Source: Parcubacteria group bacterium Gr01-1014_17 | Lineage (GTDB): Bacteria > Patescibacteriota > Minisyncoccia > Phycocordibacterales > UBA10002 | Length of the DNA: 54,968 nucleotides | Assembly: GCA_007376285.1 (NCBI GenBank) | Contig: VMFZ01000007.1 | Location: 1-54,968, forward strand | Direction of reading: 5' to 3' | Shown here: positions 3,072 to 29,258 of the stretch, one piece after another | How positions within the stretch are numbered: position 1 is the stretch's first letter | Layout: each line of letters opens with the position of its first letter | Notes under the pieces: generated by a model | Database searches by the model: none | What the model was told of the DNA's origin: nothing | The model's input: only the letters and a program-made list of their open reading frames with translations | Position numbers and translations under genes: made by a program

Positions 3072-5354
3072 ATGAAATCCTATAATCATTCCGCGGTTGA
3101 GAAGAAGTGGCAGAAGAAGTGGGGGAAGTCGGCATACAAAACCCAAGACAAAAAGAAAGGCGCCGAGAATTTTTATTTTCTGACCGAGTTTCCGTACCCG
3201 TCCGGCAATCTTCATGTCGGGCATTGGTATGCCTTTGCCGTGCCGGATATTTTGGCGCGGTATTTGCGTATGACCGGCAAGAATGTTTTGTACCCGATTG
3301 GGTTTGACGCTTTTGGACTTCCTGCAGAAAACGCGGCACTTCAGCATGGGCTGAATCCACACACTTGGACATACGAAAATATCGCGTATATGCGCAAACA
3401 GTTCATCTCTATGGGCGCCTCGTTTGACTGGTCGCGCGAAATTACCACTTGCGACCCAGCGTACTATAAATGGACGCAGTGGCTTTTTTTGAAATTGTAC
3501 GAGCGAGGTTTGGTGTACCGAAAAAAGACGGAAGTGAATTGGTGTCCGAAAGATAAGACAGTTCTCGCAAACGAGCAGGTAAAAGATGAAAAGTGCGAAC
3601 GGTGCGGTACTTCAGTGGAAAAGCGGAAGATGGAGCAGTGGAATATTAAAATTACAGAATACGCAGAACGCCTACTGTCGGATTTGGATGTACTTGATTG
3701 CCCGGAGGAAATAAAAATCGCGCAGAGGAATTGGATTGGGAAATCAGAAGGCGCTGAAATTGAATTCAAAATACACCCCACCCCAACCCTCCCCAAAGGG
3801 AAGGGGGTTAGTGTCAAAGTTTTTACCACCCGCCCCGACACTTTGTTCGGCGTGTCGTTTATTGCACTTGCGCCGTCTCATCCGTTTGCGAAAGACGCAA
3901 AAAATCTGCGCGCTATAAATCCGGCAAACAACGAGGAAGTGCCTGTGTTCGTTGCGGATTATGTAGTAGAGGATTACGGCACGGGCGCCGTGATGGGTGT
4001 CCCGGCGCACGACGAACGCGATCGAGAGTTTGCATTAAAAAACAACATTCCGGTAAAGAATTCGGAATTGGCGCCGAAAGAAGTATTTGAGAAATTTGCA
4101 CAGAAGACCACAACCTACAAACTCCACGATTGGGTCGTGTCGCGACAGCGATATTGGGGAACGCCGATTCCGCTTATTCACTGCGAGAAATGCGAATATC
4201 AACCCGTTCCGGAAAAGGATTTACCGGTGCTTTTGCCACCCATCAAAGATTATGTGCCGACTGGCGATGGCCGCTCGCCGTTGGCGAAAGCGCGAAAGTG
4301 GGCGGAAGTGAAGTGCCCCGCGTGCGGTGGGAAAGCAGAACGAGAAACCGACACTTTAGATACTTTCGTGGATTCTTCGTGGTATTTCTTGCGCTACACC
4401 GACCCGAAAAACAAAAAAGAATTTGCGTCACGGAAAAAAATGGGCGCGTGGCTTCCGGTGGACTTTTATTCTGGCGGTGCGGAACATACGACGATGCACC
4501 TGCTCTACTCTCGCTTTTGGCACAAAGCGCTCTTTGACCTTGGGCTCGTGTCAGACAAAGAGCCGTATGTGCGCCGAATGAACCGCGGGCTTATCTTGGG
4601 GTCGGACGGACAGAAGATGAGCAAGTCGCGCGGGAATGTGATTGACCCCGATGAAGAAGTAAAACAAGTGGGCGCGGATACGGTGCGAATCTATCTTGCC
4701 TTTATCGGACCGTACAACGAAACGGGTTCGTACCCGTGGGACAAGGGAGGAATCGCAGGCATTCGCAGGTTTTTGGAACGGGTGTGGAGGTTGCAGGACA
4801 AAATTCATCCCCCACCTCGGAAGCCCTCGGCACCCCCTTCAAAGGGGGAACTCAGAAATTCCTCCCTTGAGGGAGGTGTCTCCCGTAGGGAGACGGAGGA
4901 TGTTCTTTTGCACCAAACCATCAAAAAAGTTGGGGAGGACATTATAGCAATGAAGTTTAATACCGCCATCAGCGCACTGATGGTTTTGTCAAAAGCGTTT
5001 GAGAGCGAGAAGGCCGGCGCGCGCGAGGATTTTGCAATTTTCTTGCAACTACTTGCCCCATTTGCGCCACACATTGCGGAGGAACTCTGGCATGAAAATA
5101 ACTTCAAGGGTTCGGTGCACAAAGCGCCGTGGCCAACATACGACGAAGCGAAAACACGCGAAGCGTCAGTGACAATTGTGATACAAGTAAATGGCAAGAT
5201 ACGAGGAAGCTTTTTCGCGCCGCGCGGTGTCACTGAGGCGGACGCATTTGCGCGCGCCGAGGCGCTTCCGGAAGCCGCAGCACGGCTTTCCGGGAAACAA
5301 ATTAAAAAGCGGTTTTTTGTGAAAGACCGGCTGGTGAGTTTTGTCACCACTTGA
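3072..5354 (+). CDS. leuS: Leucyl-tRNA synthetase with a shortened CP1 domain and two repeat-derived inserts
   Basis: EFPYPSGNLHVGH (HIGH), TTRPDT, GTGAVMGVPAHD, SRQRYWG, KMSKS. Start taken at MKSYNH. Confidence 0.97.
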   Translation: MKSYNHSAVEKKWQKKWGKSAYKTQDKKKGAENFYFLTEFPYPSGNLHVGHWYAFAVPDILARYLRMTGKNVLYPIGFDAFGLPAENAALQHGLNPHTWTYENIAYMRKQFISMGASFDWSREITTCDPAYYKWTQWLFLKLYERGLVYRKKTEVNWCPKDKTVLANEQVKDEKCERCGTSVEKRKMEQWNIKITEYAERLLSDLDVLDCPEEIKIAQRNWIGKSEGAEIEFKIHPTPTLPKGKGVSVKVFTTRPDTLFGVSFIALAPSHPFAKDAKNLRAINPANNEEVPVFVADYVVEDYGTGAVMGVPAHDERDREFALKNNIPVKNSELAPKEVFEKFAQKTTTYKLHDWVVSRQRYWGTPIPLIHCEKCEYQPVPEKDLPVLLPPIKDYVPTGDGRSPLAKARKWAEVKCPACGGKAERETDTLDTFVDSSWYFLRYTDPKNKKEFASRKKMGAWLPVDFYSGGAEHTTMHLLYSRFWHKALFDLGLVSDKEPYVRRMNRGLILGSDGQKMSKSRGNVIDPDEEVKQVGADTVRIYLAFIGPYNETGSYPWDKGGIAGIRRFLERVWRLQDKIHPPPRKPSAPPSKGELRNSSLEGGVSRRETEDVLLHQTIKKVGEDIIAMKFNTAISALMVLSKAFESEKAGAREDFAIFLQLLAPFAPHIAEELWHENNFKGSVHKAPWPTYDEAKTREASVTIVIQVNGKIRGSFFAPRGVTEADAFARAEALPEAAARLSGKQIKKRFFVKDRLVSFVTT

Positions 5355-5379
5355 CACGCTTTCAGCGGGGGTATATAAC
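5351..5379 (+). promoter_or_regulatory. Sigma70-type promoter overlapping the leuS stop codon
   Basis: TTGACA-17 nt-TATAAC. Confidence 0.6.
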
Positions 5380-5404
5380 TAGGTTACTATAAGATAATAT
5401 ACAT

Positions 5405-6457
5405 ATGCATATGGCAACCACCACCGCGTCCGTTATTTCATTTAGTCCAAAACAAGCCGCTACGCGGCTGTTGAAAGTCCTTCCTGCTCGTGCACGCGAT
5501 GTGCTTGTGAACCGTTATGGTCTTGGTAAAGAAACTAAACGCCAGACCCTTGATTCCATTGGTAAGCGCTACCACATTACGCGCGAGCGTGTGCGCCAAA
5601 TTGAGAATTACGCAATGGCGAGCGTCCGCAAGTCCGAAGCGTACAAGAAAGAAAAATTGTCATTTACCGAATTGGAAAAAGCGGTGCATGAGTTTGGCGG
5701 AGTGGTGGGCGAGGAAGCATTTCTTTCGTATATCTCAAAAGACGCGAGCGGGCGCAATCACGCGCAATTTCTTTTGGCGCTTGGAGAGCAATTTAAGAAA
5801 ATAAAAGAAGACGATCATTTGAAGCACCGCTGGCATATGGACGACAAGCTGGCGATGAAGGTGCACGATGCGCTCCGCAAACTGTATGACAGTTTGACGG
5901 ACAAGGATTTGGTGTCGGAATTGGACATTATCGCGCAATTTTTGACGCATGTGGAGGATTTGGACGAACATTTCAAACAGGAGCAGATTGTGAAGCGTTG
6001 GCTTAACTTGTCAAAGACCATCGGCAAGAATCCCTTGGGCGAATGGGGCCTGGTTTCTTCGCCGCATATCAAAATGAAGGGCGTGCGCGATTACGCGTTT
6101 CTTGTGATTCGCAAGCATGGCTCACCGATTCACTTTACGGAAGTTGCGCGTGCGATTGAAAAAATGTTCGGCAAAAAGGCGCATGTGGCGACCACGCACA
6201 ACGAGTTGATTAAGGACAAGCGGTTCGTTCTCGTGGGGCGCGGGCTCTACGCGCTCGCCGAGTGGGGATATATGAGCGGGGTGGTGCGCGATGTGATTGC
6301 AAAGGTTTTGGAAAAACACGGCCCGCTTACGAAACAGCAAATTTTTGACAAGGTGCTTAAAGAGCGCTATGTGAAAGAAAATACCATCTCAGTAAACTTG
6401 CAAAACAAAAAGCATTTCAAGAAAGATAAGGAAGGTAAGTACTCGGCGATGAAGTAA
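5405..6457 (+). CDS. Sigma70 region-4-like HTH plus C-terminal winged-HTH repeats (RNAP delta/HARE-HTH-like)
   Basis: RYGL..TLDSIGKRYHITRERVRQIE at the N-terminus; PIHFTEVA..TTHNELIKDKRFVLVGRGLYAL at the C-terminus. No sigma region 2. Confidence 0.75.
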   Translation: MHMATTTASVISFSPKQAATRLLKVLPARARDVLVNRYGLGKETKRQTLDSIGKRYHITRERVRQIENYAMASVRKSEAYKKEKLSFTELEKAVHEFGGVVGEEAFLSYISKDASGRNHAQFLLALGEQFKKIKEDDHLKHRWHMDDKLAMKVHDALRKLYDSLTDKDLVSELDIIAQFLTHVEDLDEHFKQEQIVKRWLNLSKTIGKNPLGEWGLVSSPHIKMKGVRDYAFLVIRKHGSPIHFTEVARAIEKMFGKKAHVATTHNELIKDKRFVLVGRGLYALAEWGYMSGVVRDVIAKVLEKHGPLTKQQIFDKVLKERYVKENTISVNLQNKKHFKKDKEGKYSAMK

Positions 6458-6472
6458 ATAATGTTGGTTTCC

Positions 6473-6604
6473 ACCTGCCCTTAACCTAAGGGGAGGTGCC
6501 GAGCGAAGCGAGGCGGAGGGGTGGTTTGCTTTATTTAAGACACCCCCTCCCCCAGCACTTAGTTAAGTGCTGGGTACTCCCCCTTTAGAAAAGGGCGAGA
6601 GGAG
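6473..6604. repeat. Large GC-rich multi-hairpin repeat, family D
   Basis: Shares tgccctt..aaggggaggtgccgag..cgaggcggagggg..cacccc..ctccccctt..aagggcgagagga with 11526-11638. Confidence 0.85.
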
Positions 6605-6612
6605 AAAGAAAA

Positions 6613-6641
6613 ACCAACGACCATATTTCATAATCGTTGGT
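6613..6641 (-). terminator. Intrinsic terminator for the minus-strand small ORF
   Basis: accaacga/tcgttggt stem with an adjacent A-tract (U-tract on minus). Confidence 0.6.
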
Positions 6642-6662
6642 AGATAACGCTTTTTGAATTTT

Positions 6663-6821
6663 TTATTTGTGCCACAAGTTCAAACAGTCGTAGTTGCAAA
6701 AATAATGTTCAACACGGTTGTAGGGCTGTCTTCGTAACACTAGAACCTTTGACCATAAAGTGATTATCTTCTTGCAACCAAGACATCTCGCGGTTCGAAT
6801 TGTTGAAACTTCAATTTCCAT
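6663..6821 (-). CDS. 52-aa TRASH/MYM-like metal-binding protein
   Basis: CLGC...YFCNYDC. Start taken at MEIEVST. Confidence 0.55.
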   Translation of the reverse strand: MEIEVSTIRTARCLGCKKIITLWSKVLVLRRQPYNRVEHYFCNYDCLNLWHK

Positions 6822-6996
6822 TGTATGGCGTTTCTTTTTATATCCTAGAAAGGGCATTCGTTTAATTTCAGGTGTATTGTTTCGGGACACCACGGCTTCC
6901 TTTCTAAAGCCAACCCGTTCCTTAAACGATTCAAGGAATACTGCTAGTACCCTAGCACAACACACACTAATCCGTCAAGTTTTCGAACGGCAGTTA

Positions 6997-7033
6997 GGCA
7001 CCCGATGTTTGCCGCCTATCAACATCGGGTGCC
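6997..7033. repeat. Palindromic repeat family B (cacccgatgt..acatcgggtg)
   Basis: 33-nt core is identical in reverse to the copy at 19701-19737. Confidence 0.9.
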
Positions 7034-7069
7034 TGCTAACCACCGCTTTGCTCATGCTATACTATCCGC

Positions 7070-8485
7070 ATGATGGGAGTGATTGCTGATTTTTTTAATG
7101 CATTCGGGGCGCTCGCGACATATTTGTTTAAAAAAGACAAAGAGAGTCCAGTGCGCTCATATTTATTTCGCGCAAGCGCGCTTGGACTCGTCGCATACGG
7201 CGTGTGGTGGAATGAATTGCTTGTACCGCTCTTTTTAGTAAGCGCGACATGGATGCGCGAACTTATGCCGCTTTGGGTACCAATCGTACTGATTGTTGTG
7301 TTTGCGCACTTGTGGGTATGGTATGTGCGCACTGTTTTTTTTGAAAAGACGGGTTATGTACTGCTTGAAATCAAACTCCCGCGCGAAATTATGCGCTCTC
7401 CCAAGGCAATGGAGCTTTTCTTTTCGTCAACAATATGGAGCAGGGGTTCGGTGACTTTCGTTGATACTTTTTGGGACGGGAAAGTCGGGCCATGGTATTC
7501 GTTTGAAATCGCATCATTCGGCGGAGATGTGCATTTTTATATTTGGGTGTGGCCGAAGCTTCGTAAAATAGTAGAAACGCAGATTTACGCGCAGTACCCA
7601 ACGGTGGAAATAAACGAAACGCCGGACTATGCGGCGCGTTACCCGTATGGTCCTGAAGGCCGTTTTATGTGGGGAACACATATAAAGCTCGCAAAGCCAG
7701 ACCCATACCCAATAAAGACCTACATTGATTACGGGCTGGATAAGGAAGAAGAAGAAGAAATAAAAGTAGACCCGATTACGCCAATGCTTGAGTTTCTCGG
7801 CGGGCTTAATAAAGGGGAACAGTGCTGGATTCAGATTTTGGCGCGGGCACATCAGGAGCGCAGTTTGGTGCACGGACATTTGTTTAAGAGGCCTGATTGG
7901 AAAGACGAGGCGCAAGAACTTATTAATGAAATCTTGATGCGCGACCCGAAAACGAAGTCAACCAGAAAAGAAAGCGCGACAGGTTTTCCTATAATGCCCA
8001 CCCTTACTGACGGAGAAAAAGAGCAGGTTGAAGCCATTGAGCGGAGTTTAAATAAACATGCGTATGAATGCATGATTCGCGCTCTGTATTTTGCCGAGGG
8101 AGACGCGCAATCGGAAATACCGAAGTCAATTCCTGGGCTCATCGGCTCATTTCGGCAATACAATGCGAACAATTTTAACGGATTTAAATTGGGCTGGTAC
8201 AACGACATTTCGGACGAAACCAAAGATATCTTGTGGTTTACTGGGTTGCGTGACAAGGTCTCTGAATACTTTATGAAGATATACGGAAGACAACTGTATG
8301 ACGCATACCGTCGCCGCTCGTTTTTCTATTACCCATATAAGAATTTTCATGTAGACAAGCCGTTTATTTTGACCGCCGAAGAGTTGGCGACGATTTACCA
8401 CTTCCCGGGCAAGGTTGCCGCAACGCCGACCATCGGCCGCGCTCCGTCGCGCAAAGCCGAACCACCGCCGAACTTGCCGATTTAA
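7070..8485 (+). CDS. Conserved hypothetical membrane-anchored protein of CPR type
   Basis: N-terminal TM helices; LLEIKLP..SPKAME, WYSFEIAS, YAQYP, YPIKTY, ELATIYHFP. Function not assigned. Confidence 0.7.
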   Translation: MMGVIADFFNAFGALATYLFKKDKESPVRSYLFRASALGLVAYGVWWNELLVPLFLVSATWMRELMPLWVPIVLIVVFAHLWVWYVRTVFFEKTGYVLLEIKLPREIMRSPKAMELFFSSTIWSRGSVTFVDTFWDGKVGPWYSFEIASFGGDVHFYIWVWPKLRKIVETQIYAQYPTVEINETPDYAARYPYGPEGRFMWGTHIKLAKPDPYPIKTYIDYGLDKEEEEEIKVDPITPMLEFLGGLNKGEQCWIQILARAHQERSLVHGHLFKRPDWKDEAQELINEILMRDPKTKSTRKESATGFPIMPTLTDGEKEQVEAIERSLNKHAYECMIRALYFAEGDAQSEIPKSIPGLIGSFRQYNANNFNGFKLGWYNDISDETKDILWFTGLRDKVSEYFMKIYGRQLYDAYRRRSFFYYPYKNFHVDKPFILTAEELATIYHFPGKVAATPTIGRAPSRKAEPPPNLPI

Positions 8486-8487
8486 TC

Positions 8488-9429
8488 ATGGGCGCAAAAC
8501 TCTTTTTTGTTATCGCACTTTTTTTATTTGCGTTCGTGCAGGCATTTTACAACCGCCCGCCGCTTGATTTTCCAAGAGAGACATTTCTGACGATTGAAAA
8601 GGGAACTGCGCTCGCTGTAATTGCGGACGACTTTGATAAGCGGAGAATAGTGCGCTCTCCGTTTTGGTTCAAGGTGTTCGTGACGCTACGCGCGGGTTCA
8701 GACGGCGCGATTGCCGGCGATTACTTTTTCAGAGAGCGCGCCTCGGCTTTGCGGATTGCAGAGCGGCTTGTTACCGGAGAATACGGCTTGGAAGAAACGC
8801 GCGTGGTAATTCCAGAGGGCTTAACAAATAAAGAAATTGCAACTCTTTTTGCGCGCGCGCTGCCAAAGTTCAGCGCGCGCGAGTTCCTTTCCCTTGCGGA
8901 GAAAAAAGAAGGGTATCTTTTTCCTGACACCTACCAATTTTTGCCCAATATTCAAGCGTCGGGAGTCATTGCGGTAATGGAGGAGAATTTTAATAAAAAA
9001 ATCACGGGGCTTGAACCGCTTGTACAGATTTTTAAGAAACCGCTTCGCGATATCATTATCATGGCTTCGCTTCTTGAAAAAGAGGCACGAACGCTGGACA
9101 CGCGCCGCCGCATTGCCGGCATTTTATGGAAGCGCTTGCGGCTCGGTATGCCGCTTCAGGTAGATGCCGTGTTTCCATATATCTTTGAAGGCAAAGCGTA
9201 TGATTTGACCGACGGCGATTTGCTCGTAGATTCGCCATACAATACATATAAATACAAAGGACTTCCAGTTGGCGCAATTTCAAACCCAGGCTTAGACGCG
9301 CTCCGCGCGGCAGTAACGCCTATAGACACGCCGTATCTGTATTATTTGTCAGACAAGAATGGCGATATGCACTACGCCAAAACACACGAGGAGCATCTCG
9401 TAAACCGCGTGCGGTATTTGAATATGTAG
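8488..9429 (+). CDS. mltG: Endolytic transglycosylase MltG
   Basis: IPEG, EGYLFPDTY, MASLLEKEA, LQVDA, SPYNTY, ISNPG, YLYY. Confidence 0.93.
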   Translation: MGAKLFFVIALFLFAFVQAFYNRPPLDFPRETFLTIEKGTALAVIADDFDKRRIVRSPFWFKVFVTLRAGSDGAIAGDYFFRERASALRIAERLVTGEYGLEETRVVIPEGLTNKEIATLFARALPKFSAREFLSLAEKKEGYLFPDTYQFLPNIQASGVIAVMEENFNKKITGLEPLVQIFKKPLRDIIIMASLLEKEARTLDTRRRIAGILWKRLRLGMPLQVDAVFPYIFEGKAYDLTDGDLLVDSPYNTYKYKGLPVGAISNPGLDALRAAVTPIDTPYLYYLSDKNGDMHYAKTHEEHLVNRVRYLNM

Positions 9430-9458
9430 GGCAAATTTGGTATAATATAGGTACTAAA

Positions 9459-11516: not shown

Positions 11517-11525
11517 CCATTTTTT

Positions 11526-11638
11526 CCTCCTGCCCTTGTTTAAGGGGAGGTGCCGAGTCCGCGAGGCGGAGGGGTTTCTTTGCAGGGCGCAAACCACCCC
11601 CTCTCCTAACCTCTCCCCCTTAAACAAGGGCGAGAGGA
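11526..11638. repeat. Large GC-rich multi-hairpin repeat, family D
   Basis: Same architecture as 6473-6604. Confidence 0.85.
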
Positions 11639-11643
11639 AAGTG

Positions 11644-11687
11644 ACTCTTCCAGTTAACTGCTATAGCAAGTAATTGGAATAGTGAAC
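11644..11687. repeat. Palindromic repeat family C
   Basis: Reverse complement nearly identical to 31671-31714. Confidence 0.85.
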
Positions 11688-11718
11688 TGGATGAGTAATG
11701 AAAAATAGACAAAGAAAA

Positions 11719-11746
11719 CCCCGCGACCATATTTCAGATCGCGGGG
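11719..11746 (-). terminator. Terminator-like hairpin
   Basis: ccccgcga/tcgcgggg stem; shares cgaccatatttca with 6613-6641. Confidence 0.5.
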
Positions 11747-11838
11747 AAAGGAAAATAGTGTTGTTCTACAAGGAAAGAATACTACTCGGAAACACTCTTG
11801 GACGACCTGTCAAGGTTTGCACGTAAAAATTCTCACAC

Positions 11839-11867
11839 TTGACATCTAGACCACTATCTGCTATACT
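11839..11867 (+). promoter_or_regulatory. Near-consensus sigma70 promoter
   Basis: TTGACA-17 nt-TATACT with TG at the extended -10 position. Confidence 0.75.
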
Positions 11868-12010
11868 GTGCCTAGAAAACGCTGACGGGCAAAAAGGCAT
11901 TCGCCAATGTTTGTTCCGCTAGTTGCTCCTTTTAAGAGCTACAGGTTTGTTGCTGTCCTTGTTCCAATCAGCAACCTGAAATAGGACAGAGTCCTATTTT
12001 GGAGGCGTGT

Positions 12011-15404: not shown

Positions 15405-15460
15405 CTTTTGCAGACATTCTGCTTACGGAGGCAGTGGTCCTTGAAGTTAAAACCTTACAA

Positions 15461-15494
15461 GTCGCCTCATCGGCGACCCGCCGAAGAGGCGGGA
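15461..15494. repeat. Palindromic repeat family A
   Basis: gtcgcctcatcggcgacccgccgaagaggcggga, followed by AAGGA and the ATG at 15505. Confidence 0.85.
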
Positions 15495-15504
15495 AAGGAA
15501 AAAT

Positions 15505-19700: not shown

Positions 19701-19737
19701 AACACCCGATGTTGATAGGCGGCAAACATCGGGTGTT
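19701..19737. repeat. Palindromic repeat family B
   Basis: aacacccgatgttgataggcggcaaacatcgggtgtt. Confidence 0.9.
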
Positions 19738-22703: not shown

Positions 22704-22888
22704 ATTCTAAAATAATACCGCATTCGTTCGTATGTGTACATCGTGTACATGTAGATATCCCCGTCGATATATATATTATTTTAATTAATACTAGAATTAT
22801 ACCATACTCAAAAGTTGTGTTATGCACAGTAAAGAGTATTCTTGCCGTTAGATTGTTCTTAGAAAACTTGCTACGGAAAGATCATCAT

Positions 22889-24253
22889 ATGGATAAAAAT
22901 ACTGTGTTTGCCAAACTTGCATCTCGTACTCCCCTTTTTGACATTATGCCGATGGTGGCGAGGAAACGCATCATGGGAACCGAAAGCGAATATGGCGTAC
23001 AAAATACACTGCTCGGTGATAATCCGATTATCGCCTACGACCGGCTTCCAGCAATGCTTCAAAACGGTGGAGAGGTGTATGAGGATAGAGGGCATGTTGA
23101 ATATGCAAGCCCTGAAACCGCAAACATCGTTGCCGCTGTTGCATATTACGAAGCGGGAAAAGTGATTTGTCACAGAGAGCGATACTCACCCGAATTATAT
23201 TGCAACAATAACGACTGGTATGACAATACTTTCGGCGCACATGAGAATTACTTCACCTGCGCACAGCGCGCTGTCTGGCCTCGTTTGATTCCGTTTCTCA
23301 TTGCTCGCACAGTACTCTGCGGCGCAGGATGGGTCAACGAAAAAAGTCGTTTTGAAATCTCACAACGAGCTCATACGATATGTCAAGCTCAACATCCAGA
23401 TACCACGACGAATCGTCCGGTCTTGAATCTGCGCCCTGAATCGCTTGCGCGCGTGAAAGGTTTTGACCGCCTTCATCTTATTTGCGGCGATGCAACTATG
23501 TCGGAGGTTTCAACTTTTCTCCGTCTCGGCACAACAAGTTGCATATTAGAGATGTTAGAGCTCAATGCATTACCAGAAATTACCTATAACGAAACATATG
23601 CGCCTGCTGATATAAAGATGATCTCAAATCGCGAATGGCACTTGCGCGGCGTGACGAGCGGACCGCGTAGCGTGTTGGCTCTGCTCGCGCTGTATCTTGA
23701 GCGTGCGATAGAGCTCTTCTCTCACCGAGATGAGGTTACAGACGCGCTCTTGATTATCTGGGAAGACACCCTGCATAAACTTGAGAGCGATCACCAGAAG
23801 CTCTGGCGGAGGTTGGATTGGGCCACCAAGCTCTTTCTGTTGAATACCTTTGACGCAGTGGTGAATGACTCAACTGGGGATTGGGCGCGTGCGCAAGATA
23901 TGGCGTATCATTCGCTTAATCCTAAGGAAGGTCTCTACTACTACTTAGCGCAACAGGGGGAGATGGAGCGAATCGTTAGCGATGAACTGATTGTTCATGC
24001 AATGTATGAACCGCCTTCAGATACGCGCGCGTACGCGCGCGGAAAGACCGTGCAGTTGCTTGAAGAGCGTGGAGGAGAGCGCGTGCTCTGCGCCAACAGT
24101 TGGGACCATCTCTCTATTATTGATGTAGCCGCTAGCGGGTACAATCGCGTGATAAGAACGCCAAACCCGCGTCGCTACCTATCAATTCCTATGCCTGACC
24201 CGCGCGAAACCTACACGCATCTCGTGGAGAAAGTAAGAAAAGAATTAAGTTAA
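22889..24253 (+). CDS. Pup ligase/deamidase (PafA/Dop) family protein
   Basis: RIMGTESEYG, NGG.VY.D..H.EYASPE, NND..TFGAHENY, PFL..R..LCGAG, SQRA, RP.LN, RLHLICGD, DW..K, PP.DTRAYARG. Confidence 0.9.
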   Translation: MDKNTVFAKLASRTPLFDIMPMVARKRIMGTESEYGVQNTLLGDNPIIAYDRLPAMLQNGGEVYEDRGHVEYASPETANIVAAVAYYEAGKVICHRERYSPELYCNNNDWYDNTFGAHENYFTCAQRAVWPRLIPFLIARTVLCGAGWVNEKSRFEISQRAHTICQAQHPDTTTNRPVLNLRPESLARVKGFDRLHLICGDATMSEVSTFLRLGTTSCILEMLELNALPEITYNETYAPADIKMISNREWHLRGVTSGPRSVLALLALYLERAIELFSHRDEVTDALLIIWEDTLHKLESDHQKLWRRLDWATKLFLLNTFDAVVNDSTGDWARAQDMAYHSLNPKEGLYYYLAQQGEMERIVSDELIVHAMYEPPSDTRAYARGKTVQLLEERGGERVLCANSWDHLSIIDVAASGYNRVIRTPNPRRYLSIPMPDPRETYTHLVEKVRKELS

Positions 24254-24257
24254 AATA

Positions 24258-24290
24258 ACACCCGATGTCTGCAATTTAGACATCGGGTGT
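24258..24290. repeat. Palindromic repeat family B, ctgcaatttag-loop variant
   Basis: Sits between two convergent stop codons; the same loop occurs at 41514-41548. Confidence 0.85.
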
Positions 24291-24293
24291 CTC

Positions 24294-26726
24294 TTATGGT
24301 AGCTGCACCGTACTCGTCGCCACATTCCCCTCAAAACTCACATTGATGGCTTTGACAATTATTGCTCCAACTGCGGCGGACAAACCGGTACTGTTGTGTA
24401 TGAACGACACATTCTCCAGTGAAATGGGAGAGGAGTCGTAGTTGAGTCCGATGTCCATATAGCGGATGGTAGTATTCAAGAAGTCAGAGGTCGCATTGGG
24501 TTTCAGGTAGATGCCGGAAGGGTTCAAGGCAATCGGAGTGGTAGAGCCAGTGCCGTGAACATCGCTTCCGTCAGAGTCGTCTGCCCAGTTGGTGAAGATG
24601 ACTGGGTTTGATGGAGTTCCTTGCGCTTCCAGTCGTCCATATACCTCTAGAGAATAGCGGTCGGTCTTCCACACGCTCCCCGCTTCAGCAATAAGACCTG
24701 CTCCTGTGGGTATGGTAATCGTACTCGGGATGATGTAGGGGAAGGAGGTGTTCTTGGAGAAGGTAGAGGTAGCTCCGGCAGAGAGGAGGTTGCCTGAAGA
24801 GAGACGGACACCGTTCCATTGACCGTTGCTTGAACCAGAGTTGTTCTGTATTCTCCCGCTTCCAGAGAGTCCGCCTCCCCAGGTGAAAGCTCCACTGGTG
24901 TTGTTCGTAAAGGTATTACTGCTAATCGTACCCCTCGTGTCCCAGAAGTTCATACCGTAGGAGTTGTCGGTGATAGTGTTGCTGGAGATGGCGGGCGCTC
25001 CACCGCTCCCATAGATGCCGTAGGAGGGAGTGTCGGTGGTATGATAACGAATAGTATTACTGCTGACGGTAGAGGACGCGGTGTCTAGGTAGATACCGTA
25101 TGTCTTGCCGTATTCAATTATGGAGTTGCTGATTGTGGGAGAGGAGTTCGTAATGTAGATGTTTGCCTTCTGTTCTCCTCCGGAGAATTTGCCTCCATAG
25201 CGCACGGTACCGTATGAGAGCGTACCGGTACTGCCCGCGAGATACTGGATGCCGTACCAATCACCTGCTTGTGGTGAGGTATTCGAACCATCTCTGTTGA
25301 AATCACCACCATATGTATCATCAAAGTAGCTGGTAAAGATTGAGGGAGAAGATGCAGTTCCTGATGTTGTGAGATTGCCGTTCACCTTGATGCCTGCGGT
25401 ACTGAGGAACTTGATTACCGCGCCGGATTGGAGCGATAGCGTAGCTCCGTTCGCTACGGTGAACCATGCGTTGTCCACGAAGTACGGACTGCCGGTAGCG
25501 GTAAGAGTGAGGGTGCCTGAGGTAAGGTCGCTTCCGTAGTTCACGAGATAGTTGGCGTAGTTTCTGGCTCTCGGGGTCCCACGAATACTTCCCCCTGCTT
25601 GGTCTGTTCCGTTTTTGATGTTGTTGCGGTCTCCTCTATTGGCTGCCCAGCCGTCACTGGTGAGTCCAGATACATCTGGTGCCTTGCGCTCCATAGAGAG
25701 ATAGTTGCCTCCTCCCCCAATGCCGCACCAGCCGCCGCATGCAGAAAAGTCTAATTCATCTATCGTAGAAGTCGCGGTTCCAGAAAAGTACGACAGGTAA
25801 AGATGCTCGCCAGACATATCTCCTAGTCCTGAACCAAAACTCGTCCACAAGTCAGCTGTTACATTGGCGATGGGTGATTCACTCGCTTCGTTTGTTTCTC
25901 CGCTGTTCTTCCGTTCAATTAGGTAATATACGCCTGATGCAATGCTGCCAGACAGCTGAATGTAGGGCGCGCCATCTGCTGAGTAGAGCGTCCAGCCAGA
26001 GAGAGACACGGTATTACTTGTTTTGTTGTAGAGTTCAATCCATTCATCCTCCGAACCCGTCGCAGGTATGTCAGAACCGTACCAATATATTTCGTTGAGC
26101 ACAATGTCTCCTGCAGATGGAACATACGGAGTTGGTGTGGGGGCGGGGGCTGGTGCTGGACTTGCACTAGTGCTGCTTGTGGTGAGCGAAGTCGAACCAC
26201 CTCCTCCTCCACCGCCTCCACCACGAAACCCGTCTGGACCGATTGGAATCGGAAACGGGTCGTAGATGGGGTTGGTGGTTGGTTGAGATGGAGTCGGGGC
26301 AGTAACAATGGTCGGTGGCGCGGGAACAGTAAGAGGAAGCTGGACTGGCGCCGCCGCCTTTGGCGGCGGCGCAATTGCTGTCTTTGTTTTTTGTGGTACA
26401 ACTGTTACTTGCTCTGATATTCCAACATTCCTAGGAATGTTGGAAGGTAGAGATACTGGCTCCGGAACGATATTTACAAGCGCAATCGCAGCCCCAGCGA
26501 AAGTGTTGTCTATGACAATAGGCGTACTCTCAAAAATACTTGCGAACGCGCTCATGATTTTTGCTGCCGCAATTCCCCTTCCTGTCTCAACAACATTCGT
26601 ATTATGAATCTTCTCCACCTGCGTCTCCGTCTTATCTTGCTTCACAAAATATATCGCGAGCCCCACCACCAGTGCAATAAACGCAACCAGCACCACTCCC
26701 ACGCCCCACTTTAGTATTTTCAGCAT
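24294..26726 (-). CDS. Membrane-anchored surface protein: Pro/Gly linker, lamin-tail domain, right-handed beta-helix
   Basis: N-terminal TM; IVLNEIYW..DEWIELYNKT..VSLSGWTL (LTD); GDWYGI and ISNSII/ISSNTI repeats. Confidence 0.8.
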   Translation of the reverse strand: MLKILKWGVGVVLVAFIALVVGLAIYFVKQDKTETQVEKIHNTNVVETGRGIAAAKIMSAFASIFESTPIVIDNTFAGAAIALVNIVPEPVSLPSNIPRNVGISEQVTVVPQKTKTAIAPPPKAAAPVQLPLTVPAPPTIVTAPTPSQPTTNPIYDPFPIPIGPDGFRGGGGGGGGGSTSLTTSSTSASPAPAPAPTPTPYVPSAGDIVLNEIYWYGSDIPATGSEDEWIELYNKTSNTVSLSGWTLYSADGAPYIQLSGSIASGVYYLIERKNSGETNEASESPIANVTADLWTSFGSGLGDMSGEHLYLSYFSGTATSTIDELDFSACGGWCGIGGGGNYLSMERKAPDVSGLTSDGWAANRGDRNNIKNGTDQAGGSIRGTPRARNYANYLVNYGSDLTSGTLTLTATGSPYFVDNAWFTVANGATLSLQSGAVIKFLSTAGIKVNGNLTTSGTASSPSIFTSYFDDTYGGDFNRDGSNTSPQAGDWYGIQYLAGSTGTLSYGTVRYGGKFSGGEQKANIYITNSSPTISNSIIEYGKTYGIYLDTASSTVSSNTIRYHTTDTPSYGIYGSGGAPAISSNTITDNSYGMNFWDTRGTISSNTFTNNTSGAFTWGGGLSGSGRIQNNSGSSNGQWNGVRLSSGNLLSAGATSTFSKNTSFPYIIPSTITIPTGAGLIAEAGSVWKTDRYSLEVYGRLEAQGTPSNPVIFTNWADDSDGSDVHGTGSTTPIALNPSGIYLKPNATSDFLNTTIRYMDIGLNYDSSPISLENVSFIHNSTGLSAAVGAIIVKAINVSFEGNVATSTVQLP

Positions 26727-26840
26727 AGGAGGTTATTATTTAACACTTTTTCCTCAACGCAAAATCATTTATCCACTTTTTTATTTTGACAAACAAAAAC
26801 AGCTCCGACTCTTATATGCTTATTCGCGCGAATTAGACGA

Positions 26841-26869
26841 TTGACATGACATAAAGATAAGTGTAGTGT
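26841..26869 (+). promoter_or_regulatory. Sigma70-type promoter
   Basis: TTGACA-17 nt-TAGTGT. Confidence 0.5.
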
Positions 26870-26896
26870 AAAACACGGATAAGAACAAATTCAACA

Positions 26897-27037
26897 GTGA
26901 AAAGATTTCTGGCTACCGCGCCAGAATTCGGGCTAAAATTTGTGATTTTCCGGAAGGAAGGTCCGCATGGGCCGATTCGTCCGTGGAAATTTGAAAAGCC
27001 CCAGCGTCAAAGCAGACAGCATAAAACCGCTATCTGA
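26897..27037 (+). CDS. Putative 46-aa basic small ORF (GTG start)
   Basis: VKRFLATAPEFGLKFVIFRKEGPHGPIRPWKFEKPQRQSRQHKTAI, between a promoter and a terminator. Confidence 0.4.
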   Translation: MKRFLATAPEFGLKFVIFRKEGPHGPIRPWKFEKPQRQSRQHKTAI

Positions 27038-27044
27038 AAAGAAA

Positions 27045-27072
27045 AACCCCTCTGACTACGGCCAGAGGGGTT
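27045..27072. terminator. Bidirectional-looking terminator
   Basis: aacccctctg/cagaggggtt stem with an A-tract on the left and Ts on the right. Confidence 0.7.
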
Positions 27073-27076
27073 GTTA

Positions 27077-28354
27077 CTACAAATACAACAGAGGGTTGAG
27101 GTAAGCTCCGGGGTTGGCAACCGGAATAATATAATTGCGCCCACACACACGGCTTGGGCGCGTGGCGACTTGCACACCTTGTGTTGCAAACACGGTGAAG
27201 TGAAGATGCGGACCAGTGGCGTACCCAGTTGCGCCACTGTAGCCGACCACTTCGCCAGTAGAAACGCCCTGCCCTTCGGAAACGCGGATGAGCGAAAGGT
27301 GGGCGTAGAGGGTCGTAAGCCCGTTGCTGTGTTCAATTAAAATCCACTTTCCGTAAGAAGCGCCGCTACAGGTGCGGTCGGTATCGCCAACTCCTTTTAC
27401 CACACCAGAGAGCGCGGTCTTAATCGGCGTTCCAACGCCGGCGCGAAAGTCAACGCCGTTGTGTCCGCTCCCGTTGTACGCGCCGCTTTTCGCAAATGCC
27501 GTAGCGCCAAAGTATTGTGTAATTTTTATCGCGTCCAGCGGCCAGCGCAACACTCCGGAGCCCACCTGCGGCAGGCGCGACGGGTCTAGTTCAAACTTCA
27601 ACTGCGATTCGTATTCCAAAAGCTCGTTTTCAAACGCTTCGCGGAGCGCCAATTTGTCTTGCAGTAATTTTTTGTAATTTGTTTCTTTGTTTTTTGTCGC
27701 GGTCAAAAACGCCTGCTGTGTTGTGCGCTCTCCGTCTGCAATTCGTTTGCGGTCCGCGCGCTCGTTTTTAAGCGCGGTGAGCTCTTTTCTTTTTGCGTCA
27801 ATTTCGGCACGGTTCTCTTCCAACTCGGCTTTTAATTCTTTAACACCACGAATGCTGTCTGCAAGCCGCGCTTCAACCGCGCGAAGCGCCTCCGCTTCGC
27901 GCCACGCACCTGAAAACCCGTTTTCATTCAAAAAAATCTCTACAGGACTTTCGCGATGCCCCTCTGCAAGTAGGCGGAGCGCTTTCTCCAGTCCCGCGTT
28001 TCCGCGCCCAATACGCTTCTCTTGCACTCCTATATTTTCTGTGAGCGCGTCTATGGAAAGAGTGGCTGCACTTATTCTGCTCTCTGTTGCCTTGATTTCC
28101 GCAAGGAGCTTTTTGCGTGTCAAGTCCAACTCCGCAATCGCATTTTTCAAAGAGTTCGCTTCCCCACCGAGCTTGTCAAGTTCGCCCTGATAGGCGGCAA
28201 TTTCTTTTTCAAGAGCCGCAATCTGCTCGTTGCGCTCGCTGATTTTGGTTTGTAAGTCCGCGATATCTGAATACACAGGCAAAACGGCGAGCGTAGTAAG
28301 CGCGCATAATATGGCGGCAACGCGCCAAAAGATTTCACCGTGGCTGTTTTGCAT
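27077..28354 (-). CDS. Coiled-coil plus M23 peptidase (EnvC/MepM-like)
   Basis: Signal peptide, long coiled coil, HNGVDF (HxxxD), YAHL, TGPHLHF. Confidence 0.92.
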   Translation of the reverse strand: MQNSHGEIFWRVAAILCALTTLAVLPVYSDIADLQTKISERNEQIAALEKEIAAYQGELDKLGGEANSLKNAIAELDLTRKKLLAEIKATESRISAATLSIDALTENIGVQEKRIGRGNAGLEKALRLLAEGHRESPVEIFLNENGFSGAWREAEALRAVEARLADSIRGVKELKAELEENRAEIDAKRKELTALKNERADRKRIADGERTTQQAFLTATKNKETNYKKLLQDKLALREAFENELLEYESQLKFELDPSRLPQVGSGVLRWPLDAIKITQYFGATAFAKSGAYNGSGHNGVDFRAGVGTPIKTALSGVVKGVGDTDRTCSGASYGKWILIEHSNGLTTLYAHLSLIRVSEGQGVSTGEVVGYSGATGYATGPHLHFTVFATQGVQVATRPSRVCGRNYIIPVANPGAYLNPLLYL

Positions 28355-29258
28355 ACTGCTTGTTGAGCCAGTTGAGTTTGTTGGAGTCCAGCATCGCTCC
28401 ACCTTTTTGCACGCGTTCCAAACTAAAATGCTGAAGGAGGTCGCTCCACGACAAGACCTCGCTTGCATCTCCAGATGGATGCCAGCCAAGCAACGCGAGG
28501 AAATTTACCATTGCTTCCGGCGCAATCTCTGCGTTTCTATAATGTGCGAGCGATACCGATTCTCCGTGTTTTCGTTTGGAAAGTTTGGAACGGTCAGGCG
28601 CTAAAATCAAAGGCAGATGCGCGTACGCGGGGCGCGGCGCACCGATGGATTCCTGAATTAAAATCTGCCGCGCGGTGTTGGAGATATGGTCTTCTCCGCG
28701 GATGATGTGTGTGACTCCCATTTCAAAGTCATCCACCACAACCGCAAGGTGGTACAGCGGCTCAGAAACCGACTTGGCGATGACGAAATCCTTAAGTTCT
28801 GTCGTATCAAAAGAAACCTCCCCGCGCACAATATCTTGAAACGAAACGCGCTTGTTGGGATTTTTAAATCGGACGACTTCTATCATCCCCTCCTCAGTTG
28901 AGGAGGGGTGCCCGAAGGGCGGGGTGGTGGTGTTAGTTATCTTTTTTGGCTCTCTTGACACATACGCCGCGCCAGATTTTATTAGCGTAGTGAGGTGTTT
29001 CTGATATATGTCTGTTCGCTCCGACTGGCGATATATGTCATCTGGTTTTATCCCTAACCATTTTAACCCGCTAAAAATATCTTCTTCATATTTCTTCTCC
29101 GAGCGTTCTTTATCGGTATCTTCAATGCGTAAAATAAACGAGCCGCCGTGCTGTTTGGTGAAAATATAATTAAAGAGCGCGGTACGCGCGCCGCCGATGT
29201 GAAGCGGCCCCGTGGGGCTCGGCGCAAATCGAACGATGACTTTGTGTTCTTTTTTCAT
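28335..29258 (-). CDS. gltX: Glutamyl-tRNA synthetase catalytic domain only (~307 aa, no anticodon-binding domain)
   Basis: RFAPSPTGPLHIGG, LRIEDTD, VVDD, RGEDH, KLSKR; ends shortly after KLNWLN. Confidence 0.88.
   Translation of the reverse strand: MKKEHKVIVRFAPSPTGPLHIGGARTALFNYIFTKQHGGSFILRIEDTDKERSEKKYEEDIFSGLKWLGIKPDDIYRQSERTDIYQKHLTTLIKSGAAYVSREPKKITNTTTPPFGHPSSTEEGMIEVVRFKNPNKRVSFQDIVRGEVSFDTTELKDFVIAKSVSEPLYHLAVVVDDFEMGVTHIIRGEDHISNTARQILIQESIGAPRPAYAHLPLILAPDRSKLSKRKHGESVSLAHYRNAEIAPEAMVNFLALLGWHPSGDASEVLSWSDLLQHFSLERVQKGGAMLDSNKLNWLNKQYAKQPR

What the first reader, a model, noticed from the sequence alone, without database searches (positions are those of the whole stretch)
3774..28931. 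GC-rich palindromic elements inserted in frame in two aminoacyl-tRNA synthetases
Seen: LeuRS carries HPTPTLPKGKG (3774-3807) in CP1 and HPPPRKPSAPPSKGELRNSSLEGGVSRRETED (about 4806-4902). GluRS carries TTTPPFGHPSSTEEG (28886-28931). Each is encoded by hairpins (cccccttcaaaggggg, cctcccttgagggagg, cccctcctcagttgaggagggg) that match arms of the intergenic elements at 6473-6604 and 11526-11638. Known: Rickettsia palindromic elements insert in frame in protein genes. Inference: a mobile non-autonomous repeat is creating new peptide loops in essential enzymes.
Basis: partly seen in the sequence, partly recalled or inferred. Interest (0 to 1): 0.75.

Follow-up and report, generated by a model that had tools for sequence, protein, structure and literature searches.

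The report
Nuclease-linked hairpin repeats inside tRNA synthetases
Two aminoacyl-tRNA synthetase genes of this small-genome (Patescibacteria) bacterium carry translated remnants of a GC-rich hairpin repeat which, in related genomes, flanks a small DUF559 nuclease gene; this gives a first clue to how the repeat spreads and to what the uncharacterised DUF559 family does.

Summary
LeuRS (3072-5354 +) has extra segments at 3774-3806 and 4806-4901. A C-terminally truncated GluRS (28335-29258 -) has one at 28887-28934.

All three keep the reading frame, fall in low-confidence loops of the AlphaFold models, and are missing from the closest and from distant orthologs.

Two intergenic elements (6468-6606, 11523-11641) are palindromes built from two inverted half-units: hairpin A, hairpin B, arm C.

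- **LeuRS site 2** is two such half-units. A profile built only from other genomes finds it (E 0.003).
- **LeuRS site 1** does not fold better than shuffled sequence. It is 29/31 identical to the 5' end of an in-frame DUF559 nuclease cassette at the same site in two LeuRS orthologs.
- **The GluRS insert** folds strongly but matches the profile weakly.

DUF559 genes lie 6-133 nt from the repeat motif in 4 of 40 motif-bearing loci, in Patescibacteria and Clostridia.

Repeat segments stay 81-100% identical at third codon positions where the host genes show 44-53%. Hairpins change by compensatory substitutions. The GluRS insert needs 9-10 gains or losses across close orthologs.

Best reading: ORF-less derivatives of a DUF559-associated, homing-like selfish element. 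That DUF559 does the mobilising is inferred, not shown.

The parts
3072..5354 (+). LeuRS gene (760 aa from the likely start). It hosts two inserts and has a reduced CP1 editing domain.
   Evidence: PDB and NCBIfam matches; ortholog alignment A1.
3774..3806 (+). LeuRS site 1 insert, HPTPTLPKGKG. It has an arm C'-like run and a degenerate hairpin (ccctcccc AAA gggaagggg). It looks like the ORF-less remnant, or the empty form, of a DUF559 cassette.
   Evidence: 3775-3805 is 29/31 identical to the 5' end of the in-frame DUF559 insertion in L131 and L132. Loop between strands 224-234 and 247-252 of the model. Folding z about 0.
4806..4901 (+). LeuRS site 2 insert (32 aa): a reverse-complement half-unit, a 12-nt spacer, then a forward half-unit.
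   Evidence: nhmmer E 0.003 with a profile from other genomes; alignment A10. Absent in P0001 and in distant orthologs. Model residues 582-603 have pLDDT below 50.
4809..4848 (+). Reverse-complement half-unit C'-B1'-A': ccccacc, then tcgg aagcc ctcggca, then the hairpin ccccctt CA aaggggg.
   Evidence: Aligns with GGTGCCGAG..CGAGGYGG..GGGG of the family on the minus strand.
4861..4901 (+). Forward half-unit A-B2-C: cctccct TG agggagg, then gtctccc GTA gggagac, then ggaggat.
   Evidence: The B2 hairpin resembles the upstream terminal repeat of the L019 DUF559 unit.
28335..29258 (-). Truncated GluRS gene (307 aa, catalytic core only) that hosts one insert.
28887..28934 (-). GluRS insert, NTTTPPFGHPSSTEEG. 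In gene sense it reads arm C' (caccaccacccc), then hairpin gccc TTCG ggc, then a 10-bp hairpin cccctcctca AC tgaggagggg.
   Evidence: Model residues 108-122 have pLDDT below 50, between strands 98-104 and 125-131. Patchy among orthologs. 47/48 nt identical to L013.
6468..6606 (.). Full intergenic palindromic element (A-B-C, loop, C'-B'-A'), 139 nt, 10 nt after the stop of the sigma-70-like gene.
11523..11641 (.). Full intergenic palindromic element, 119 nt, 6 nt after the gyrB stop. L003 has a shorter copy (A plus arm C) at the orthologous place.

Best explanation
The three in-frame segments are derivatives of one family of GC-rich, multi-hairpin repeats.

**The unit.** The basic half-unit is about 50 nt and has three parts:
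- hairpin A: CCTCCCCTT, a loop, AAGGGGAGG;
- hairpin B: either GCC-GA-G..C-GA-GGC with tandem G.A mismatches, or a fully paired variant;
- a G-rich arm C: GGAGGGGTGG.

Two inverted half-units flank a small gene for a DUF559 (Vsr-like, PD-(D/E)XK) nuclease. The compact unit in L019 is about 455 nt.

**ORF-less versions in the window.**
- The two intergenic palindromes have the order A-B-C, loop, C'-B'-A'.
- LeuRS site 2 has the order C'-B'-A', spacer, A-B-C.
- LeuRS site 1 keeps only the two ends of the cassette.
- The GluRS insert is a single half-unit.

**Why copies persist in essential genes.** Only copies that keep the frame, carry no stop codon and fall in a surface loop should survive. 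These are translated as Pro/Gly/Ser/Lys/Glu-rich disordered loops.

**Spread.** The same gene site is gained and lost repeatedly among related lineages. This fits a homing-like cycle of invasion, loss of the nuclease ORF, decay or loss, and re-invasion. The hairpin ends are held constant at the nucleotide level, most likely as cis sites for the nuclease or for recombination.

**Shown:** the family relation, the adjacency to DUF559, the nucleotide-level conservation, the compensatory changes, the patchy same-site distribution and the loop location.

**Inferred:** translation of the inserts, DUF559 as the mobilising enzyme, and the homing mechanism.
For: 1. **Family membership.** Half-unit profile hits are E 0.003 in the window and E 0.006 in L002. 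The joint alignment is A10.

2. **Structure is conserved.**
   - 84% of cells are paired, against 45-58% when the partners are slid.
   - 8 pairs change on both sides.
   - The covariation score beats 500 of 500 shuffles.
   - Between the window and L002 inserts, three compensatory double changes keep two hairpins while the peptide changes.

3. **DUF559 link.**
   - An in-frame DUF559 domain (Pfam E 9e-34) sits at LeuRS site 1 in L131 and L132, flanked by the same hairpins.
   - The window's site 1 is 29/31 identical to the 5' end of that cassette.
   - DUF559 ORFs lie 6, 20, 93 and 133 nt from the motif in L025, L019, L021 and L030.
   - L019 shows the repeat-nuclease-repeat unit directly.
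   - The closest free-standing DUF559 proteins begin with the hairpin-coded peptide SPSPTLP-KGKG.

4. **Nucleotide-level conservation, measured as third-codon-position identity.**
   - L131/L132 cassette ends: 19/22, against 374/739 in the rest of LeuRS (p 6e-4).
   - Window/L002 site 2: 25/31, against 322/728 (p 5e-5).
   - Window/L131 forward half: 15/15, against 385/721 (p 9e-5).
   - Window/L013 GluRS insert: 15/16, against 144/283 (p 5e-4).
   - The DUF559 ORF itself is saturated at these positions (53/121) and is under purifying selection (pN 0.23, pS 0.77).

5. **Same-site gain and loss.**
   - 9-10 events are needed for 10 insert-bearing GluRS genes in all 100 bootstrap trees.
   - Sister pairs of one insert-bearing and one empty gene have 91-100% support.
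   - The genome GCA_030697445.1 lacks both the LeuRS site 2 and the GluRS inserts.

6. **Loop location** in both models.

7. **Breadth.** The exact motif gives 45 matches in 40 loci where about one is expected by chance (my estimate from the pattern length). They include Patescibacteria, Clostridia, a Flavobacteriaceae genome and a Rhizomicrobium genome.
Against: - No DUF559 gene, transposase or other nuclease lies in the 55-kb window. Any enzyme would have to act in trans, and whether this genome has one is unknown.
- The GluRS insert and LeuRS site 1 are not significant against the profile. Site 1 has no fold signal.
- No target-site duplication or common target motif was seen.
- DUF559 sits between half-units in two different arrangements: between C and C' in L019, and between A' and A in L025, L131, L021 and L030. 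The true boundaries of the unit are therefore unresolved.
- A lone PD-(D/E)XK nuclease is not known to carry out transposition. Homing does not explain spread to new intergenic sites.
- The motif-bearing loci were ascertained with an exact pattern. The alignment used for covariation was chosen by hand.
- High identity of the inserts could come from gene conversion rather than from selection.
Confidence: 0.72

Rival explanations
1. The repeat is a classical miniature inverted-repeat element, moved in trans by an ordinary transposase that was not sampled. DUF559 genes would then be passengers, or would simply tend to sit next to the repeats.
For: The elements have terminal inverted repeats, occur in many copies per genome (at least 8 contigs of MAG CAYORD01 and 7 of JAZQQE01) and are mostly intergenic. 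No nuclease is known to transpose alone.
Against: No target-site duplication was seen. No transposase lies in the window. The only ORF found between the repeat ends is DUF559, in 6 independent loci from two phyla.
Confidence: 0.12
2. The hairpins are control or insulating structures (terminator, mRNA stabiliser or operator) that belong to DUF559 gene cassettes. Only the nuclease cassette moves. The in-gene and intergenic ORF-less copies are scars left where the ORF was deleted, not mobile units themselves.
For: In Clostridia, hairpin A is followed by a T-run on the opposite strand, like an intrinsic terminator. Hairpins upstream of free-standing Vsr-like endonuclease genes have been described as control elements (PMC2677866). 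Site 1 of the window looks like a deletion derivative.
Against: ORF-less copies far outnumber DUF559 ORFs: 4 ORFs for 45 motif matches. The hairpins stay conserved inside host coding sequence, where terminator function would be harmful. Window copies have no T-run.
Confidence: 0.12
3. The element moves as single-stranded DNA, like REP sequences with their RAYT transposase or palindrome-associated derivatives of IS200/IS605. A Y1 transposase would recognise the imperfect hairpins.
For: Hairpins with conserved mismatches fit this model: the G.G mismatch in hairpin A of the Patescibacteria copies and the tandem G.A in hairpin B. The absence of a target-site duplication also fits.
Against: No Y1 transposase was seen in the window. 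There is no conserved GTAG-type head. DUF559, not TnpA, is the linked ORF.
Confidence: 0.03
4. The segments are ordinary lineage-specific low-complexity loop expansions, with palindromes that arose by chance or by template switching. No mobile element is involved.
For: Both LeuRS sites and the GluRS site vary in length across Patescibacteria. A perfect 11-bp GC hairpin also occurs in conserved YceG coding sequence. The native GluRS loop (GAAGGGGAA) already resembles one arm.
Against: The segments match intergenic repeats of other genomes. They show compensatory changes and third-position conservation. LeuRS site 1 is homologous to the end of a DUF559 cassette.
Confidence: 0.01

Closest known systems
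Rickettsia palindromic elements (Ogata et al. 2000, as summarised in PMC10969869)
   Same: They are short palindromic repeats present in many copies. They insert in frame into unrelated housekeeping genes, are translated, and appear compatible with the protein fold.
   Different: The host phylum and the sequences are different. Here the ends are shared across phyla and are linked to a DUF559 nuclease ORF, whereas the summary read here (PMC10969869) names no autonomous partner for the Rickettsia elements. Here the same gene site is occupied recurrently in different lineages.
Vsr-like (EDxHD) homing endonucleases such as I-Bth0305I, and 'fractured genes' (PMC2677866, PMC3239194)
   Same: The nuclease belongs to the same PD-(D/E)XK clade as Vsr, DUF559 and I-Bth0305I (PMC3424549). 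These genes insert into conserved essential genes, have hairpins next to the endonuclease ORF, and are patchily distributed.
   Different: There is no intron, intein or split gene. The DUF559 domain is read straight through as part of LeuRS. The ends are conserved 50-nt inverted repeats, and ORF-less copies are dispersed in intergenic DNA. Sequence similarity to I-Bth0305I was not detected (one search found only 3HRL).
Bacterial miniature inverted-repeat elements (Correia, ERIC, BOX, Nezha; review PMC10969869)
   Same: They are 100-150 nt with terminal inverted repeats, fold into long hairpins, are mostly intergenic and are sometimes intragenic in frame.
   Different: No target-site duplication was seen. 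The partner ORF is a 115-130 aa nuclease rather than a DDE or other known transposase.
REP/BIME elements with RAYT, and IS200/IS605 palindrome-associated elements
   Same: They are imperfect GC-rich hairpins with conserved mismatches, in many intergenic copies, with no target-site duplication.
   Different: No Y1 transposase was seen. The half-unit has several hairpins and is longer. In-frame copies inside genes are prominent here.
Palindromic amphipathic repeat coding elements (PMC2996958)
   Same: They are palindromic coding repeats that can be translated and are horizontally distributed.
   Different: Those are tandem intragenic repeats that encode amphipathic helices in surface proteins. 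They are not single hairpin inserts linked to a nuclease. I saw only the title and abstract.

Membership tests
Rickettsia palindromic elements | Palindromic repeat of about 100-150 bp in many copies per genome | tested here: met
   Two full copies of 119 and 139 nt in the window. At least 8 contigs of a related MAG carry the exact motif.
Rickettsia palindromic elements | In-frame, stop-free insertion in protein-coding genes, at surface positions | tested here: met
   Three inserts in two genes keep the frame. They fall in low-pLDDT loops.
Rickettsia palindromic elements | Sequence relation to the RPE families of Rickettsia | not tested
   No RPE sequences were on hand. The host is a Patescibacteria genome. 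I treat the resemblance as an analogy only.
Miniature inverted-repeat transposable element | Terminal inverted repeats shared with a longer, ORF-bearing partner | tested here: met
   The L019 unit has the order A-B-C, DUF559 ORF, C'-B'-A'. The window elements have the same ends without the ORF.
Miniature inverted-repeat transposable element | Target-site duplication | tested here: not met
   No flanking direct repeats appear in comparisons of filled and empty sites.
Miniature inverted-repeat transposable element | Partner encodes a recognised transposase | tested here: not met
   The partner ORF matches only DUF559 and, weakly, MTES_1575, which are PD-(D/E)XK nuclease families.
Homing endonuclease gene (Vsr-like family) | Nuclease of the Vsr/DUF559 PD-(D/E)XK clade | tested here: met
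   PF04480 at E 9e-34 to 8e-31. PDB 3HRL at E 3e-19. The clade grouping is from PMC3424549.
Homing endonuclease gene (Vsr-like family) | Occupies one precise site of a conserved gene, with a patchy distribution among close relatives | tested here: met
   LeuRS site 1 in L131 and L132, against empty orthologs. For the GluRS site, 9-10 events are needed in all bootstrap trees.
Homing endonuclease gene (Vsr-like family) | Housed in a self-splicing intron or an intein, or free-standing between gene halves | tested here: not met
   P0002 (902 aa) and P0007 (922 aa) are continuous ORFs. The only Pfam matches in the insert are DUF559 and MTES_1575. No Rfam intron was found.
Homing endonuclease gene (Vsr-like family) | The enzyme cuts the empty allele, and the element is copied in by repair | not testable with these tools
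   This needs biochemistry or genetics.
REP/RAYT or IS200/IS605-derived palindromes | A linked Y1 (TnpA or RAYT) transposase | tested here: inconclusive
   None is in the window's Pfam annotation. The other loci and the rest of the genome were not screened.
Known structured RNA families (Rfam 15) | Match to a curated covariance model | tested here: not met
   Only a tRNA was found in the window. No family covers the elements in the window or in five other loci.

The most novel reading that the evidence does not exclude
DUF559 proteins, a very large family with no assigned role, would be the nucleases of a family of very small selfish elements of about 0.45 kb, found across bacterial phyla. Each element is bounded by conserved inverted repeats of about 50 nt that contain several hairpins. 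These elements would home into precise sites of conserved essential genes, where they are read through in frame as part of the host protein. They would then decay into ORF-less palindromes that persist as intergenic repeats and as new peptide loops.
Probability: 0.4. Interest if true: 0.85.

Novelty: new variant of a known kind. Interest (0 to 1): 0.72.

Why it matters
In-frame palindromic repeats in essential genes are best known from Rickettsia. This finding extends them to Patescibacteria.

It also supplies a candidate enzyme partner, a DUF559 nuclease sitting between the same repeat ends. One case has the whole nuclease domain translated as part of a leucyl-tRNA synthetase.

If the link holds, three things follow:
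- It gives a testable function to a large domain family of unknown function.
- It explains a class of GC-rich 'PSP..KGEG'-type peptides seen in predicted proteins of several phyla.
- It offers a natural system for studying how selfish DNA creates new surface loops and domain insertions in core translation enzymes.

It is also a practical warning for annotation. Such repeats inflate or extend ORF calls in genomes assembled from metagenomes.

Tried and rejected
- **Rfam.** Scans of the window and of five element-bearing loci found no family for the element.
- **Full-length covariance model R1.** It recovered only the two intergenic copies. The in-gene pieces scored E 0.2-2, among generic hairpins, so it was not useful for partial copies. 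A sequence profile of the half-unit worked better.
- **Viral contigs.** A scan for the motif found nothing.
- **Literature.** Searches for the core sequence, for DUF559, and for such repeats in Patescibacteria found no description of this element.
- **YceG hairpin.** The 11-bp perfect GC hairpin at 8852-8881 was considered as a fourth insert. It was rejected because it lies in sequence conserved with the ortholog.
- **dnaE repeat.** The repeat at 15458-15499 lies inside the long dnaE ORF and was considered as an in-frame insert. It was rejected because the called start is downstream of it.
- **Target-site duplications and a common target motif.** None were found.
- **LeuRS site 1 as a hairpin.** Rejected on folding. 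Its identity comes from homology to the cassette end.
- **Inteins or introns as an explanation.** Rejected because the frame is always kept and no such domains or RNA families match.
Full report
**What the window is.**
The window is a 55-kb piece of a Patescibacteria (Parcubacteria-type) genome. The closest LeuRS and GluRS relatives all come from such genomes. The same contig occurs in ENA sample ERZ27284378.
- LeuRS is at 3072-5354 (+).
- The 'GluRS' at 28335-29258 (-) is a 307-aa catalytic core without the anticodon-binding domain. It passes the bacterial gltX cut-off but covers only profile positions 1-318 of 470. Its close orthologs share the short form.

**Checking the observation.**
The three peptides and their coordinates are correct.

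Perfect hairpins lie at 4833-4848, 4861-4876, 4878-4894 and 28887-28908.

Folded as single strands against dinucleotide shuffles:
- the intergenic element scores z = -5.9;
- the GluRS insert scores -4.1 and -5.0 on the two strands;
- LeuRS site 2 scores only -1.8 and -2.4;
- LeuRS site 1 scores about 0.

So site 1 is not a hairpin beyond chance.

The intergenic elements at 6468-6606 and 11523-11641 are quasi-palindromes whose two strands align with each other.

**Anatomy of the repeat.**
The repeat is built from a half-unit of about 50 nt with three parts:
- hairpin A: CCT(C/G)CCCTT, a loop, AAGGGGAGG;
- hairpin B: type B1 is GCC-GA-G, a loop, C-GA-GGC, with tandem G.A mismatches; type B2 is fully paired;
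- a G-rich arm C: GGAGGGGTGG.

The intergenic elements have the order A-B-C, a short loop, then C'-B'-A'.

On an alignment of 27 half-units:
- the two hairpins are paired in 84% of cells, against 45-58% when the partners are slid;
- eight pairs change on both sides;
- the covariation score exceeds all 500 shuffles.

This alignment was hand-picked, and part of it was ascertained with an exact pattern, so these figures are supportive rather than decisive. No Rfam family matches the element.

**Are the in-gene segments members of the family?**
I built a sequence profile of the half-unit from other genomes only. In the window it finds the two intergenic elements (E 1e-14), their palindromic partner halves, and one further place: LeuRS site 2 (4811-4847, minus strand, E 0.003). 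The homologous insert in ortholog L002 scores E 0.006.

Site 2 reads as a reverse-complement half-unit with B1, a 12-nt spacer, then a forward half-unit with B2.

The GluRS insert and LeuRS site 1 are not significant against the profile. For GluRS the case rests on four points:
- its strong fold signal;
- its layout of arm C', a small TTCG hairpin and a 10-bp hairpin;
- the variant in L050, where the same site carries a hairpin followed by GAGGGGTGG;
- its behaviour among orthologs, described below.

**Orthologs.**
- LeuRS site 2 is empty in the closest ortholog (P0001, 83% identity) and in all distant ones.
- It holds a homologous insert in P0006 and half of one in P0002.
- It holds unrelated palindromic inserts in P0003, P0004 and P0005.

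Between the window and L002 inserts, three double substitutions are compensatory:
- two in ccccctt/aaggggg becoming ccctcct/aggaggg;
- one in gtctccc/gggagac becoming gtctcgc/gcgagac.

The hairpins survive while the peptide changes.

The GluRS insert is present in 10 of about 37 short-form orthologs. The others share a 9-residue loop.

In 100 bootstrap trees built without the insert columns:
- 9-10 gains or losses are always needed;
- sister pairs of one insert-bearing and one empty gene have up to 100% support.

In about 66 more distant GluRS genes the loop is nearly always of the ancestral length.

**Location in the proteins.**
All three inserts map to low-confidence, unstructured loops.
- In GluRS the insert lies between two strands.
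- LeuRS site 2 lies between two helices of the anticodon-binding domain.
- LeuRS site 1 lies at the tip of the first hairpin of CP1.

**The nuclease link.**
Two LeuRS orthologs carry an in-frame insertion of about 430 nt at site 1. They are P0002 (L131), from the same sample as the window and 77% identical, and P0007 (L132).

The insertion encodes a complete DUF559 domain (PF04480, E 9e-34; PDB 3HRL, E 3e-19). It is bounded as follows:
- on the 5' side by cccatcccc plus the hairpin cccttccc AAA gggaaggg;
- on the 3' side by ccttccc TTT ggggagg plus GGAGGGGTGG.

Window 3775-3805 is 29/31 identical to the 5' end of this cassette. Site 1 of the window is therefore the ORF-less form of the cassette.

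A tblastn search of all held loci found DUF559 ORFs 6, 20, 93 and 133 nt from the motif in four of the 40 motif-anchored loci. These are L025 and L019 (Patescibacteria) and L021 and L030 (Eubacterium).

- L019 shows a compact unit: A-B2-C, 15 nt, the DUF559 ORF, then C'-B1'-A'. This is the ORF-bearing counterpart of the window's intergenic palindromes.
- L025 and L131 show the other order, C'..A', ORF, A..C. This is the counterpart of LeuRS site 2.

The closest free-standing DUF559 proteins begin with the hairpin-coded peptide SPSPTLP-KGKG.

The window itself has no DUF559 gene and no transposase.

**Constraint at the nucleotide level.**
Between L131 and L132 the host gene and the DUF559 ORF are saturated at third codon positions (0.51 and 0.44 identity). 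The DUF559 ORF is under purifying selection (pN 0.23, pS 0.77). Yet the two hairpin ends are identical at 19 of 22 third positions (p 6e-4).

The same pattern holds in three other comparisons:
- window against L002 at site 2: 25/31, against 0.44 in the rest of the gene (p 5e-5);
- window against L131 for the forward half-unit: 15/15 (p 9e-5);
- the GluRS insert against L013: 47/48 nt overall, 15/16 at third positions, against 0.51 (p 5e-4).

Because the ORF between the ends has diverged with the host, recent transfer of the whole cassette does not explain the L131/L132 case. That leaves selection on the DNA or RNA sequence of the ends, or their homogenisation against other copies.

For GluRS, near-identical inserts sit in hosts that are not each other's closest relatives. 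This points to horizontal, site-specific spread.

**Breadth.**
The exact 21-base motif has 45 matches in 40 loci of the species-representative genome collection, where I estimate about one by chance from the pattern length.

The hosts include:
- several Patescibacteria, one with at least 8 contigs;
- many Clostridia, including the isolate Eubacterium coprostanoligenes ATCC 51222;
- a Flavobacteriaceae genome;
- a Rhizomicrobium genome.

The full two-hairpin core is kept in most of these loci. There are no matches in viral contigs.

**How it most likely works.**
I commit to the following. These are ORF-less derivatives of a selfish element made of a DUF559 nuclease gene between two inverted multi-hairpin ends. 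It invades precise sites of conserved genes and intergenic DNA. Only in-frame, stop-free copies in tolerant loops survive in essential genes, and these are translated. The nuclease ORF is then lost and the ends decay piecemeal, as in site 1, in the half-insert of P0002 and in the GluRS variants.

- **Shown:** the family relation, the adjacency to the nuclease, the nucleotide-level conservation, the compensatory change, the recurrent same-site gain or loss, and the loop location.
- **Inferred:** translation of the inserts, DUF559 as the acting enzyme, and the mode of movement.

The main weaknesses are these:
- no enzyme in the window;
- no target-site duplication and no common target motif;
- two different placements of the ORF relative to the half-units;
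- no known way for a lone PD-(D/E)XK nuclease to move DNA to new sites.

**Comparison with what is known.**
- In behaviour this resembles Rickettsia palindromic elements, which make in-frame, surface-tolerated inserts (PMC10969869). It is not shown to be related to them.
- DUF559 belongs to the same PD-(D/E)XK clade as Vsr and the homing endonuclease I-Bth0305I (PMC3424549). Hairpins next to free-standing Vsr-like endonuclease genes have been noted before (PMC2677866).
- Here there is no intron, intein or split gene. ORF-less copies are dispersed like miniature inverted-repeat elements, but without a target-site duplication or a recognised transposase.
- I found no paper that describes DUF559 with such repeats, or such repeats in Patescibacteria. 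The library is incomplete, so prior description cannot be excluded.

**Verdict.**
It is also extended: the repeat has a candidate nuclease partner and a reach across phyla. I rate it a new variant of a known kind, with interest 0.72.

Noticed in passing
window 28335-29258 (-): The GluRS is only the catalytic core (307 aa). The next gene, an M23 peptidase, begins right at its end, so the anticodon-binding domain is missing. About 37 close orthologs share the short form, while more distant Patescibacteria have the full 450-aa enzyme.
   Followed up: partly
window 3072-5354 (+); proteins P0008-P0120: This LeuRS has a much reduced CP1 editing domain: 91 aa between FTTRPDT and YKLHDW. It also lacks the leucine-specific domain. 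Many other Patescibacteria LeuRS carry a NUDIX domain in CP1, and about 50 carry an alpha/beta-hydrolase domain of about 190 aa exactly at site 1.
   Followed up: partly
L131 1140-1649; L132 1451-1942: A whole DUF559 nuclease domain is read through in frame inside LeuRS in two independent samples. It is under purifying selection (pN 0.23, pS 0.77).
   Followed up: yes
window 788-829, 15458-15499, 31519-31560, 40306-40347: A second repeat family has four copies: a double hairpin, GTCGCC-TCATC-GGCGAC followed by CCCGCC-GAAGA-GGCGGG. The copy at 31519-31560 lies in the first 17 codons of the called FtsW ORF, which is about 21 aa longer than in relatives. Similar cccgcc..ggcggg hairpins sit in the GluRS loop of L073 and L074.
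   Followed up: partly
window 2949-2987, 11645-11683, 31676-31714: A 39-nt AT-rich palindrome (CTATTCCAACTACTTGCTATAGCAAGTAACTGGAAGAGT) occurs three times in intergenic DNA. One copy directly abuts the element at 11523-11641. It could be an operator-like site.
   Followed up: no
window 6996-7034, 19701-19737, 24258-24290, 41514-41548: A third family of 13-14 bp hairpins (ACACCCGATGTT .. AACATCGGGTGT) lies after genes, like terminators. The peptide GHPMSDI at LeuRS site 1 of P0029 suggests this family can also sit in frame.
   Followed up: no
L003 2708-2869; L005 4029-4196; P0007 and P0008 site 2: A different palindromic element, with AT-rich ends (ACACATTTTCAAAATGTC .. GACTTTTGAAAATGCTGT), occupies LeuRS site 2 in other orthologs. 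The site is therefore a hot spot for several repeat families.
   Followed up: partly
L081 (GluRS locus), insert of 52 aa: A distant GluRS has a 40-residue extra segment at the same loop, with direct repeats of aaagtcttcggat(t/g)cccgagagc.
   Followed up: no
L063 811-1164 and flanks: A DUF559 gene lies just upstream of a GluRS gene. It is flanked on both sides by another closed unit: CCTCACCCC, a hairpin, GGGGTGAGG. DUF559 genes may therefore be associated with more than one kind of GC-rich structured end.
   Followed up: partly
window 8852-8881: A perfect 11-bp GC hairpin lies inside conserved YceG coding sequence (FARALPKFSARE). It is not an insert, and it served as a control.
   Followed up: yes
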